NCBI GenBank assembly: GCA_964016885.1
Contig: OZ024740.1
Span: 366,668,001 to 366,732,000 of the forward strand
DNA from: Eledone cirrhosa
Taxonomy: Eukaryota
DNA: 64,000 bases
Direction: 5' to 3'
The notes under the pieces are model-generated. The model made no database searches. It had not been told where the DNA came from and saw only the letters and a program-made list of their open reading frames with translations. The position numbers and the translations under genes are program-made. Below, one piece after another: positions 20,366 to 54,290 of the stretch; positions within the stretch are counted from its first letter, which is position 1, and every line of letters starts with the position of its first letter.

Positions 20366-21121
20366 TAGAAATTACATGAATCAAAGTTCTGTTTAAACCA
20401 TTTATTCGCTTACAATTGTTTCTTCCAAACCGAGGTTTGGAGTCTTCGGAGCAATTTTTCAATGATTATTTACATACATGACCTCCTTTTCAACACAAGA
20501 GACATACAGAAACATATGTATATATTGATGCACATAATACTCTTGATTGCCCGCTTAAAGTGCTTGTATTACATATAACACCCTGCCGCACTATAATCTT
20601 ATATAAACTAGACACACGTGCATGCCCCATGTGTAACAATTGCATACACTAACTACTTCAAACTATCCTCTTGCTTTATCTTCGTAAACTGCCAATGTTG
20701 TATTTTAACTTTAATTTTGTTCTTTGATATGACTTTAATCTTTGAATGTAAATTTCCATGCTAAATATTATAATGGATGTCAACCCACTGTGCATCAATA
20801 TATACATAAGTTTCTGTATGTCTCTTGTGTTGAAAAGGAGGTCATGTATGTAAATAATCATTGAAAAATTGCTCCGAAGACTCCAAACCTCGGTTTGGAA
20901 GAAACAATTGTAAGCGAATAAATGGTTTAAACAGAACTTTGATTCATGTAATTTCTATATAACTGCTCTGTAGAACAACTGATGTTATTACATTGAGCTA
21001 TTTATCTTACTGGTAATAAGGTAGTAATATATTACTGTCTTTCACTATTTAGGGTTTAAAATATATATAACTATAAAAGGTTTTAGTATATAAATAACCA
21101 TAAATAGTATCCTTAATACTA
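20366..21121. mobile_element. Non-autonomous fold-back derivative of the 38.3-44.2 kb PLE family
   Basis: Arms 20366-20535 and 20790-20960 are near-identical inverted copies. Tail 20960-21120 is homologous to the reverse complement of 38320-38481. (TA)n on both sides. Confidence 0.85.
20869..20918 (+). ncRNA. Predicted minimal hammerhead, CCGAAGA core (mirror copy about 20406-20455, - strand)
   Basis: gct-CCGAAGA-ctccaaacc(tc)ggtttggaa-GAAA-CAATTG-TA-agc, then AATAAA. Confidence 0.75.
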
Positions 21122-22023
21122 TATATATATATATATATATATCTATATATATCTATATATATATACATATTAACTCTCTAAAAAGGGAAAACATATCCAA
21201 CTCCAGACTACCATTTGCCTCCATTATGGATCAACTTCTCTAAGCGCTCCTGCCATAATAACACTTTTTGAACTGCTTATCCTCAAGAACTATGCCTCTA
21301 AATAATATTATTCTTTCTTTCCCATTACCTTAATTTTTTTTTTACTTCAAAAACCTTGTTTCTTTCCCATTTCCTTAACATGTTCAACATCACCTTATCT
21401 TTTCTCCTACATTTTACACCAATACAAATTTCCCCCTTTGATAATGCATAAACTGCTGAAACCGGCAATTGACAATTATTAAATAAATAAATAAATAAAT
21501 AAATCAATGTTATTGTTAATTAATAAATAAATTAACTAATACCTTAACACTTCACACAAAGTAAAATATTTTGTTTTAAACATTTTCTAACCCAGAAAAA
21601 AGAGAAAAAATAAAGGAAAAAAAAAAATGTTTCTTCCTAATAATCGTTTTTTACACACACACACACACACACACACACACACACACACACACACACACAC
21701 ACACACACACACACACACACACACACACACACACACACACACACACAGACAGACACACAGACACACACACACACACACACACACACACACACACACACAC
21801 ACACACACACACACACACACACACACATATATATGTATATATATATATATATATATATAATATACTTTTTTGAAAATGTGGAAGTACATATGTATGTGTG
21901 TGGTGGGGTGTGTACATGCATGAGTGTGGTGGGGTGTGTACATGCATGAGTGTGCTTAAGCGTTCGTCTACAATAATCTTACCTTCTCACATATATCTTC
22001 TGTATTATGTTATATGAAAATAG

Positions 22024-22156
22024 ATGAGAGACAACTTTATCCGGGGCATGAATCGAGCTACAATATCTGACTATCTTGACATTAATGCTGGGAGCTCCAC
22101 ACCTTACGTTTCTCAAAGTTCAGAGGAAACTTTTCTAGATGGTTTTAACATCGGAG
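22024..22156 (+). CDS. Exon 6 (MRDNFIRGMNRATISDYLDINAGSSTPYVSQSSEETFLDGFNIG)
   Basis: Open phase-0 frame after aaatag|, strong donor G|GTAAGT. Weak acceptor tract. Confidence 0.6.
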
Positions 22157-24194
22157 GTAAGTAAAATCTTTCATGAAATACAACTTGGTGACGTCGATAA
22201 AAGAAATGAGTTGAAACTCCTTTTAAGTCTGTTTTTTTTTCTATGGCCGCTGGATTCTTAATTATTCAATCTAAATTTAACAAACTATTCATGTTTCTAT
22301 ATATAAATTGGAGCGATTTCCCTCCGTCACACAATGTGTGTGTGTGTTTGTGTGAATGTTTATGTGTGTAAAAGGAAGGAAGGGGATGGCAAAAAAAACT
22401 ATAGCTAAACAGTGGCTGGCGTTCCATTTGCTACGCTGTGTGTGTTGGTGTATGCGTGTGTTTGTTTGTGAAAATGTATGTGTGTGTTTGTGTGAATGTA
22501 AGAGCATTTGTGTGAATGTATGTTTGTGAGTGTGTATTTTTCAAAGTGTGTCTGTGTTTGTGCATTTATATTTACATACTCATGCATATAAATATATGCA
22601 CACACACACACACACACACACACACACACACACACACACATACACACACACACACACACACACACACACACACACACACACACACACACACACACACACA
22701 CACACACACACACACACACACAGACAGATATACACATACACGTCAGCGTGTTGGAAAAGTTTCTTGTATTTAAAACTTCTTGAGATAAGATACTATGTCA
22801 TAACACAAAAGGGTTCTGAACGTCTGTTAAACTGCCAAAGGAAAATTGTCTTGTTGCAGGCCTTTCTGTATAGGCAGAAATGAAACAGAATTTGGAGCTA
22901 TCGGGGCAAAGATACATTCCTTCTCGATATTAGAATACCATTCATTAAAGATATTAGGATGAAAACATGAAAATACTTACGTATGTTACATTTCGAATTG
23001 GGAAAAAATAAAAGGTATAAGTTAATTCGGATTATAATTTTAATAACCCGTGCAAAATCCTTGTTTAGCAATTGAAGCATAGTTATTTATTTATATATTC
23101 CCAATTATAAAAAATATAACAAAGGAGTAGAAGTAGGCAGAGGCATAACTAGGGAAAATAGCGCCTATGGCAGTTGAATTGCGCCCCTGCCCAGCACTGT
23201 ATTTTCACTTATAGGCCTAAAAAATTCTACTAATGTTTTAATGATCCAGCCACCATCGTGTTCTCCCCCATGATAACCAGAGACAGATCATACATCTGAA
23301 GGAAATTCGTTTTTCATTCTCCGACAAGGCTTATTTGACATTAATAAAACGTGCTCCTTGTCAAAGTGGCGCCTCCTTTATGTGGAGCCCATGGCACGTG
23401 CCCTGGAAGTAGCCTCTGGAAGTAGATGAAGCAATTTAAGATTAAAAAAAAAGGTTTTTTAATGTAGTCCTGTTTACATGATATGTAAGTGATCGCAAGG
23501 CGTAGCAGTGGCAATGCGTGTAAATGTTTTAGCTGTGTGTTGGTCATGAGTTGAGAGAGAGATATTTATTTATTCTGTATTTATTGTGTATTATTTGTTT
23601 TGTTGAACGAGCGAGTTATCATGTATCCATTTCAGCAAGTTTTTGATGTCACTGGAGCATGTACCTGTAATTTGTGAGGTATTCGAGTTATATGTATAAC
23701 CAAGGGCACAACAGAAGAAGAAGGAATGTGGGTGTTGTAGTTAGCTAGGAGTATGTGTAGGTAGCGGTGACATTGTAAAGATCATTGCTCCAGCGAATGA
23801 AGAACACGTCTCTCTGACTATCTCTAGTCACTTTTATCGTTGCCATTCATGTAATGGTAAGCGGGCATTTTAGGTAACTATCCTGCGTCATATTCGTCGG
23901 GAGGTTCAGTTTCTTGAGGTTATTCTTCACAACTTCATCCTATATCTTACTTGGTCATTCCCAGCCATCAGTTCCACCCACTTCGAGCGCACGGCAATTC
24001 TTTATACAGCCCTCACTCTCTTTACTCATCATACGACTATATCAGTGAAATGAACACTTTTGCACACTATTTTCCTTTCTTCATATACTTAGCTTTTTCA
24101 CTCAGTTCACTCGTGCTCTTTCCTTCACATCCAGCGGAGCGCTTGCACGTCTCATTTCTTATATATATATATATATATATATATATATATATAT

Positions 24195-24870
24195 ATTCAC
24201 TGCAGATAATGGATAGTCCTGGCTTCTCTTTCTAATTTTTATTCATATGTATCACAATCGCAACTACACAGCACGCCATTTTTCATTCCTATATGCTTTC
24301 CTTTCCCCTTCGCTATGACCTGTCTTTTTCTCTTCCCTTACTGCTATCCTCTTTCTCTCTCCCTCTTCTCTCTCCTTCTACCTCTTACTTTCCTTCACCC
24401 CCTCTGCTAGTCACCCTCTCTCAGCTAGCCTCTTCCTCACACTTTCACTCACTCCCTCTCTGCTACTCACCCTCTCTCTCACTTCCTCCATCGTCCCACA
24501 CCGTGCGAAATTCTTTTCTCGCTCACTTTTCGCACGGCCAAGATGTGTCTTTCGTCTTCTCGTCAATGATTCGCAAGTTCTTATGTTCACATGAATCACT
24601 GACTTGATTTTCTCATTTTTTCCTCTCTTTACGTTGCCTCACCATTCTTGTTTGTTTACCTGTCTCTCTTTCTCCACCCAATTCTTTTTATCCCAATAAC
24701 TTATTTTAGTTATTGTTCGCGCTAGCCTGAGGTATATGATCTTTAATGTGAAGAAATACCTATGATGGCTAGTAGATCACTGATCATGGATAGTCCTGGC
24801 TTCTCTTTCTAATTTTTATTCATATGTATCACATTCGCAACAACACAGCACGCCATTTTTCATTCGTATA
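24195..24870 (+). repeat. Family G repeat (direct end repeats around pyrimidine-rich body)
   Basis: cactg...atggatagtcctggcttctctttctaatttttattcatatgtatcac at about 24198 and 24778; homologous to 27200-27845 and 31313-31890. Confidence 0.75.
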
Positions 24871-53932: not shown

Positions 53933-53984
53933 TATATATATATATATATATATATATATATATATATATATATATATATAACGT

Positions 53985-54125
53985 ATAACGAAGGAAGTGT
54001 GGTAAGGAACCAGGTGGACCATAACGCACCAGAGTACTCAATACGTTGGGTAGCAGAGTGGGTAATAGGAAAATGTTCAAGACCCCGACGGCAGAGCTCA
54101 AGCCGTTTCGACGGCTATTTCTGGT
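53985..54125. mobile_element. Family F element, single arm
   Basis: Tail plus arm ending at gacggctatttctgg, the same breakpoint as the hairpin copies. Confidence 0.8.
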
Positions 54126-54190
54126 CATTTTCCTATATATATATATAATATAAAAAAACGAAAAATGAGTGATGCATCTAGACTCAGTTT

Positions 54191-54290
54191 ATTGCGTGTT
54201 ACAATTGTTTCGTCGGCAGATAGCTCGAGACATGATCATTGTATGGATCTGCCTGATTCTATAACTGCGGGTTCTTCGGACACATGCAAT
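54191..54290 (-). ncRNA. Predicted hammerhead with CCGAAGA core and extended stem II
   Basis: - strand: ttgcatgtgt-CCGAAGA-...ggcagat..atctgcc..-GAAA-CAATTG-TA-acacgcaat-aaa. Confidence 0.65.

What the first reader, a model, noticed from the sequence alone, without database searches (positions are those of the whole stretch)
20869..54290. Recurrent non-canonical CCGAAGA hammerhead core with covarying palindromic stem III
Seen: five motifs (20406-, 20869+, 38521-, 44095+, 54191-) have CCGAAGA in place of CUGANGA. Stem III is a 6-nt palindrome that changes compensatorily (CAATTG versus CAGCTG; TGCGCA in another family). The variant is present in the youngest element. Established: U4 is highly conserved, and minimal PLE hammerheads cleave as dimers via palindromic stem III. 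Inference: a selected, possibly dimer-dependent or attenuated U4C ribozyme class that strict motif searches would miss.
Basis: partly seen in the sequence, partly recalled or inferred. Interest (0 to 1): 0.75.

Follow-up and report, generated by a model that had tools for sequence, protein, structure and literature searches.

The report
Octopus-type Penelope hammerhead with U4C core
Jumping genes in this animal genome carry, in about 9,000 copies, a hammerhead-shaped RNA motif with C instead of the textbook U at one core position; the change arose several times in lineages that kept spreading, so the motif likely still cuts itself slowly and in pairs, though cutting is untested.

Summary
The five CCGAAGA motifs are real but come from three insertions and two families. 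Four belong to a young Hydra-clade Penelope-like element: 7,717 genomic motif matches vs 25 control, and 94 near-identical RT copies. Sister families (62-65% RT identity) carry CUGANGA at the same site, so C4 is derived. The fifth motif's family has both U4 (3,422) and C4 (1,360) subfamilies; its tree needs three changes. Purines at position 4 stay at decay level, and in the main family C4>T is no commoner than G5>A. Stem III went CAATTG>CAGTTG>CAGCTG through the wobble form (mismatch form: 32 copies), at positions that pair only in a dimer. TGCGCA motifs have normal U4 cores. Verdict: a tolerated pyrimidine variant of the known dimeric PLE hammerhead, not a new class. U4C is known from a viroid, and a CYGANGA descriptor is in print. 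Cleavage and attenuation are not shown: 5' junctions rarely mark the cut site (2 of 77 C4 copies, 0 of 52 U4). This scan noted U4C Penelope hammerheads before in other genomes.

The parts
20869..20917 (+). C4 hammerhead, short family (CCGAAGA, 7-bp stem II, CAATTG); predicted cut after 20912
20406..20454 (-). C4 hammerhead, inverted arm of the same insertion
   Evidence: arms align over 173 nt with 1 mismatch
20362..21122 (.). 5'-truncated fold-back PLE stub (inverted arm about 20362-20534, direct arm with long tail about 20532-21122) between (TA)n tracts
38524..38570 (-). C4 hammerhead (CAGCTG) at the 3' end of the young element; predicted cut between 38528 and 38527
44096..44142 (+). C4 hammerhead (CAGCTG) of the inverted arm; one private change at the base of stem II
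40014..42047 (-). 5'-truncated RT + GIY-YIG ORF of a Hydra-clade PLE (about the first 150 of 832 codons missing)
38317..44185 (.). whole young insertion: direct copy 38317-42047(-) plus inverted arm 42048-44185(+)
54196..54287 (-). C4 hammerhead of a second family with long (59-nt) stem II and CAATTG; predicted cut between 54202 and 54201
38179..38248 (+). canonical U4 hammerhead with TGCGCA (other family; comparison only)
47153..47223 (+). canonical U4 hammerhead with TGCGCA (other family; comparison only)

Best explanation
These motifs are the hammerhead homologues of Penelope-like retrotransposons in which core position 4 has switched from U to C several times in lineages that went on amplifying, and they likely still self-cleave, slowly and mainly as dimers joined through the palindromic stem III. 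Shown from sequence: position in the element, homology to canonical hammerheads of sister families, constraint on the core, pyrimidine-only tolerance at position 4, and dimer-type covariation. Inferred: in a full-length copy the two motifs lie 4,201 nt apart in one transcript and would pair through stem III so that each core cuts at GUA, releasing a unit-length RNA. Because nearly all insertions read through the cut site, reverse transcription must use either uncut RNA or a re-ligated circle, so a low cleavage rate would cost little and C4 would be near-neutral.
For: Orthology: U4 motifs with the same stem I sit 214-227 nt before the ORF in sister families at 62-65% RT identity; C4 marks one RT clade. 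Constraint: in 94 motif copies taken from loci chosen by protein hit, not by motif, all 94 have C4, with 1 difference in 1,034 core letters vs 82 in 13,486 flank letters. Across 13 C4 representatives 11 of 11 core columns are invariant vs 14 of 53 flank columns, while N7, 10.1, 11.1 and 17 vary (rows were mostly found by motif, so this is biased upward). Position 4: short family non-C 210 copies (first 100: T 62, A 20, G 18) vs G5 non-G 170 (first 100: A 79), so C4>T about 130 matches G5>A about 134. Long family U4 3,422, C4 1,360, purine 196 including spurious matches; three label changes, single C4 clade rejected, p-AU 1e-67. Stem III: first 100 of 7,717 are CAATTG 65, CAGCTG 19, CAGTTG 15, CGATTG 1, all self-complementary; CAACTG 32 genome-wide; CAGCTG nests inside CAGTTG; 121 of 127 motifs and 10 of 10 recurrent hexamers are dimer-compatible, chance 0.148 each. 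For 20874 the cofold minimum is the dimeric hammerhead (-30.6 vs -19.4 kcal/mol for two monomers). Literature: U4C lowers activity in vitro yet suffices in a viroid (PMC3088659); no U4 escape mutants among 50 plaques (PMC4075628).
Against: No cleavage was measured. In a type III hammerhead mutational scan, single changes in the CUGA turn gave low activity (PMC9901934). PLE minimal hammerheads cleave poorly in vitro even with U4 (PMC4209133). 5' junctions match the cut site in only 2 of 77 C4 copies and 0 of 52 U4 copies. For 38566 and 54279 the lowest-energy cofold keeps the stem III duplex but not the full core. Whole-structure covariation across 16 representatives was only marginal (18 of 500 shuffles reached the score; other measures not significant). 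The wobble path is a single historical event. Sister U4 families use odd-length stem III with a central mismatch, a much weaker duplex (-1.6 to -2.3 kcal/mol), so a perfect palindrome is not required.
Confidence: 0.62

Rival explanations
1. C4 is positively favoured because it slows cleavage: the element needs uncut RNA as template, so damped ribozymes out-copy fast ones.
For: U-to-C appears in at least three well-sampled lineages (the short family, and two long-family clades), plus one single-copy case. In the short family no U4 revertant lineage amplified although C4pG5 mutates to U4 in about 130 copies. 65 of 77 forward copies read through the upstream cut site.
Against: U4 subfamilies outnumber C4 in the long family (3,422 vs 1,360). 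U4 Hydra families have intact ORFs and read through as well (40 of 52). One U4 copy (L158) falls among older C4 copies, and GUC-type relatives were not counted genome-wide. Few master lineages, so drift can give the same pattern.
Confidence: 0.2
2. The fold is kept as a binding or dimerisation signal for the element's RT; cleavage is incidental, which frees position 4.
For: Insertions end at fixed points +47 and +211 past the motif and retain both sides of the cut site. Junctions do not mark the cut site. Craig et al. call PLE hammerhead function unclear.
Against: What is conserved is the catalytic set, while N7 and 17 vary as in active hammerheads. A sister family shows the U3-A8 swap of the C3-G8 tertiary pair, which argues for the catalytic fold.
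Confidence: 0.13
3. C4 inactivated the ribozyme in a founder element and the dead motif simply hitch-hiked.
For: The CUGA turn is mutation-sensitive. Naiads spread without canonical hammerheads.
Against: The core stays invariant while flanks diverge. Stem III changed by compensation after C4 arose. C4 arose repeatedly while purines never amplified.
Confidence: 0.05

Closest known systems
Minimal type I hammerheads in pLTRs of metazoan PLEs (Cervera and De la Pena 2014, PMC4209133; parts 1-2 of 4 read; supplement search found no C4 core in the text held, one file not searched)
   Same: pLTR position, 4-5 bp stem I, 7-bp stem II, short palindromic stem III, proposed dimer cleavage, inverted pairs, U3-A8 variant families.
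   Different: C4 core and no G10.1-C11.1 pair, which that paper calls highly conserved.
Hydra-clade PLE hammerheads (Craig et al. 2021, PMC8557442; section 11, passages, File S1/S2 part 2 read)
   Same: Host element motifs, (TA)n targeting, frequent unpaired bases flanking stem II, an octopus member (Hydra-1_Obim).
   Different: All 26 Hydra-clade rows of File S2 have CTGANGA; none has C4.
Natural U4C viroid hammerhead (Ambros and Flores 1998; not held, seen only as cited in PMC3088659 and PMC4075628)
   Same: Same substitution; reported as reduced in vitro but sufficient in vivo.
   Different: One viroid variant; here fixed in thousands of genomic copies of amplifying retroelements with a minimal stem III.
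Small PLE hammerhead variants that cleave as dimers (Lunse et al. 2017, PMC5785218; not held, title and review passage only)
   Same: Dimer cleavage through diminished stem III.
   Different: Unknown whether their collection already includes C4 cores.

Membership tests
Type I hammerhead ribozyme | Three-way junction with stems I, II, III in type I order | tested here: met
Type I hammerhead ribozyme | Core C3, G5, A6, G8, A9, G12, A13, A14, A15.1-U16.1, H17 | tested here: met
Type I hammerhead ribozyme | U at position 4 (strict CUGANGA consensus) | tested here: not met
   C4; an accepted natural variant per PMC3088659 and the CYGANGA descriptor
Type I hammerhead ribozyme | G10.1-C11.1 pair | tested here: not met
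   12 of 16 rows unpaired; also absent in many published Hydra rows
Type I hammerhead ribozyme | Site-specific self-cleavage after H17 | not testable with these tools
   needs a bench assay; junction proxy inconclusive
Dimeric minimal PLE hammerhead | Self-complementary stem III that covaries at positions pairing only between molecules | tested here: met
Dimeric minimal PLE hammerhead | Two same-strand copies flanking the ORF in full-length elements | tested here: met
   13 of 20 fetched loci show same-strand motifs on both sides of a 832-codon frame; unit 4,201 nt
Hydra-clade PLE (short family) | C-terminal GIY-YIG; RWK-like, DKT, CxCX5C, CxxC, CxH motifs; no CCHH | tested here: met
   RWR, DKT, CNCRANRTC, CNLC, CQH read against the definition; weak Pfam GIY-YIG hit E 0.008
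Hydra-clade PLE (short family) | Placement in an RT tree with published Hydra proteins | not tested
   tree holds only this genome's proteins
Hydra-clade PLE (long family, 54279) | Linked RT/EN ORF | tested here: inconclusive
   no sense-strand ORF match within 1.5 kb upstream of 49 copies; shared upstream sequence up to about 700 nt

The most novel reading that the evidence does not exclude
U4C is a recurrent, selected throttle: Penelope-like elements repeatedly evolve a damped, dimer-gated hammerhead because the reverse transcriptase needs RNA that spans the cut site. Near-isogenic natural U4/C4 sister subfamilies in this genome would then be a ready-made experiment on the open question of what PLE hammerheads are for.
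Probability: 0.2. Interest if true: 0.68.

Novelty: new variant of a known kind. Interest (0 to 1): 0.45.

Why it matters
It moves U4C from a one-off viroid oddity to a core fixed in an abundant, recently active animal retrotransposon and arising repeatedly, so the working consensus for PLE hammerheads should be CYGANGA with a free 10.1-11.1 pair. CUGANGA searches miss about 9,000 motifs in this genome. The A-U > G-U > G-C path at positions that cannot pair in a monomer is direct evolutionary evidence for the dimer model. Natural U4/C4 sister pairs and a U3-A8 sister family give matched substrates for testing whether cleavage matters for PLE transposition.

Tried and rejected
Rfam: no hammerhead hit among the 150 of 339 rows listed for the window, nor at E<=10 over the C4 pair or over the canonical U4 motif plus C4 motif at 38100-38650; the miss is not due to C4. 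RNA evidence: no RNA holder listed; four runs held as contigs were laid on 43900-44200, which cannot show ends or expression; in the two well-covered runs T at position 4 was 3.9% and 0.03% of depth. 5' junction proxy for cleavage: of 77 forward copies from 71 loci, 2 are compatible with exactly +1, 65 read through, 18 of them past the fetched edge; U4 families 0 of 52 within 5 nt; Fisher p 0.52. It is uninformative because a circular template predicts the same. A genome-wide count of such junctions is left open. An obligatory compensating change for C4 (N7, residue 17, stem III) was looked for and not found: C4 occurs with N7 = A, C, G, U and with GUA or GUC. Extended stem I pairing upstream is plausible but shows no two-sided changes. 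The first long-family tree included non-homologous flanks and was replaced (40 of 51 rows; unrelated, duplicated, arm-paired or upstream-truncated rows dropped). The short-family tree used 59 of 96 rows, and its root is unreliable (long outgroup branches). Literature searches found no paper reporting C4 cores in PLEs; Lunse 2017 and Ambros and Flores 1998 were not held, so prior description cannot be excluded.

Full report
Observation. The window is animal DNA rich in (TA)n (3.0-Gb assembly; an octopus-type genome is my inference from composition, the Hydra elements and earlier notes, not a tested result). A structural scan found all five motifs with CCGAAGA cores and complete type I frames; 0 of 200 shuffles gave one (shuffle lengths not printed). 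They are three insertions: a fold-back stub at about 20362-21122, a young fold-back element at 38317-44185 whose arms differ at 3 of 2,138 nt, and one motif at 54279 with a 59-nt stem II. None of the C4 motifs has the G10.1-C11.1 pair.

What carries it. The ORF at 40014-42047(-) is a 5'-truncated RT plus GIY-YIG protein. Full copies read RWR, DKT, CxCX5C, CxxC and CxH and lack CCHH, which fits the Hydra clade as defined in PMC8557442 section 11; no tree with published proteins was made. A protein search returned 94 scored copies at 99-100% identity, most in an 832-codon open frame. In 20 fetched loci the unit from cut site to cut site is 4,201 nt, 13 have same-strand motifs on both sides of the ORF, and most copies end at +47 or +211 past the 3' motif. 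Sister families at 62-65% RT identity carry CTGANGA motifs with the same stem I at the same distance before the ORF; C4 marks one RT clade. A further sister family has the U3-A8 swap, a variant described in PMC4209133. All 26 Hydra-clade rows in File S2 of PMC8557442 have CTGANGA. So the motif is a true hammerhead homologue and C4 is derived.

Position 4. The short-family pattern has 7,717 matches vs 25 control; the CTGANGA version with the same spacing has 694 vs 105, mostly other families. Copies with a non-C at position 4 number 210 (first 100 counted by eye: T 62, A 20, G 18) and copies with a non-G at 5 number 170 (A 79, T 14, C 7). Reversion to U4 (about 130) equals G5>A (about 134), is spread over subfamilies, and looks like decay after insertion. 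Among 94 motif copies in loci chosen by protein hit, all have C4. The 54279 family differs: C4 1,360, U4 3,422 (slightly wider stem III pattern), purine 196 with many spurious rows. With positions 4 and 7 and stem III masked, its tree of 40 rows needs three changes and rejects one C4 clade; two C4 clades are well sampled, one is a single copy, and the root is by midpoint. N7 varies by subfamily (A, C, G) under C4. Reading: U and C both allow amplification, purines do not.

Stem III. In the first 100 of the 7,717 matches, all hexamers are self-complementary with G-U allowed (65 CAATTG, 19 CAGCTG, 15 CAGTTG, 1 CGATTG). The mismatch intermediate CAACTG has 32 copies in the genome. On a tree of 59 rows built without these columns, CAGCTG nests in a CAGTTG grade. 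The two central bases cannot pair in a monomer loop, so this points to pairing between molecules; it is one event. Across all fetched families 121 of 127 motifs and 10 of 10 recurrent hexamers are dimer-compatible (chance 0.148). The computed dimer is 11-16 kcal/mol below two monomers for the short family, and for 20874 and 44100 it is the cofold minimum; for 38566 and 54279 other folds compete. Against over-reading: the covariation score on 16 representatives is marginal, and U4 sister families manage with an odd-length, centrally mismatched stem III.

Does it cut? Not shown. No RNA run was listed. 5' junctions of forward copies match the cut site in 2 of 77 C4 copies and 0 of 52 U4 copies; 65 of 77 and 40 of 52 read through. 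Templates therefore span the site, as uncut RNA or a re-ligated circle, the latter as proposed in PMC4209133. Published data cut both ways: U4C is much slower in vitro but sufficient for a viroid (PMC3088659 passage), U4 gave no escape mutants in an MS2 screen (PMC4075628 part 1), and CUGA-turn single mutants were low-activity in a deep scan (PMC9901934 passages).

Mechanism and rivals. Most likely (0.62): a slow, dimer-dependent hammerhead in which C4 is tolerated. Rivals: C4 favoured as a throttle (0.2), fold kept for RT binding without cleavage (0.13), dead relic (0.05). The window copies themselves cannot form the cis dimer, since their motifs lie on opposite strands.

Novelty. The element type, the dimer model and U4C itself are known, and a CYGANGA descriptor is in print (PMC13481778 passages). 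Six literature searches found no report of C4 cores in PLEs, but Lunse 2017 could not be read and one Cervera 2014 supplement file was not searched; either may already hold such cores. Earlier notes of this scan report U4C Penelope hammerheads in three other windows from other genomes; they are unchecked leads and pointed me to the Hydra clade table. New here: fixation in a recently active family, repeated origin with U4 sisters side by side, and the wobble path. Class: new variant of a known kind; interest 0.45.

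Noticed in passing
L254-L261, about 230-280 nt before the ORF (for example G000:C2:317613738-317620168): Sister Hydra family, several copies with 877-codon frames, whose hammerhead has the U3-A8 swap (UUGANAA) and a CGGCTG stem III; seen in 7 of 8 loci.
   Followed up: partly
L262-L313: Two U4 Hydra families with odd-length stem III (CAATG, CATTG, CACTG) and GUU, GUA or GUC cut triplets; many intact frames of 818-873 codons.
   Followed up: partly
window 6921-6958 (+) and 35794-35858 (+): Further canonical-core hammerheads (CTGAGGA with CAATTG; CTGATGA with TATGTA) of other PLE families.
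   Followed up: no
L200, L211, L083: Fold-back junctions that fall in local palindromes, including the stem II hairpin of the hammerhead itself.
   Followed up: no
run X1 laid on window 43960-44075: A few contigs carry clustered T>C changes on the + strand (12 places), which would be A>G on the antisense arm; may reflect editing of fold-back RNA or edited genomic copies.
   Followed up: no
G000 pairs such as C4:301832774/301836184 and C8:44058911/44059735: Both arms of one insertion share the same non-C base at position 4, so the change was present before or during insertion.
   Followed up: no
window 8849-9652 (+) and 36031-37221 (+): Fragments of other Hydra-like endonuclease ORFs (35-46% identity to the young element).
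   Followed up: no
window 2508-5317: A 388-codon open frame without Pfam match followed by a long trinucleotide-like low-complexity tract; possibly a host exon.
   Followed up: no
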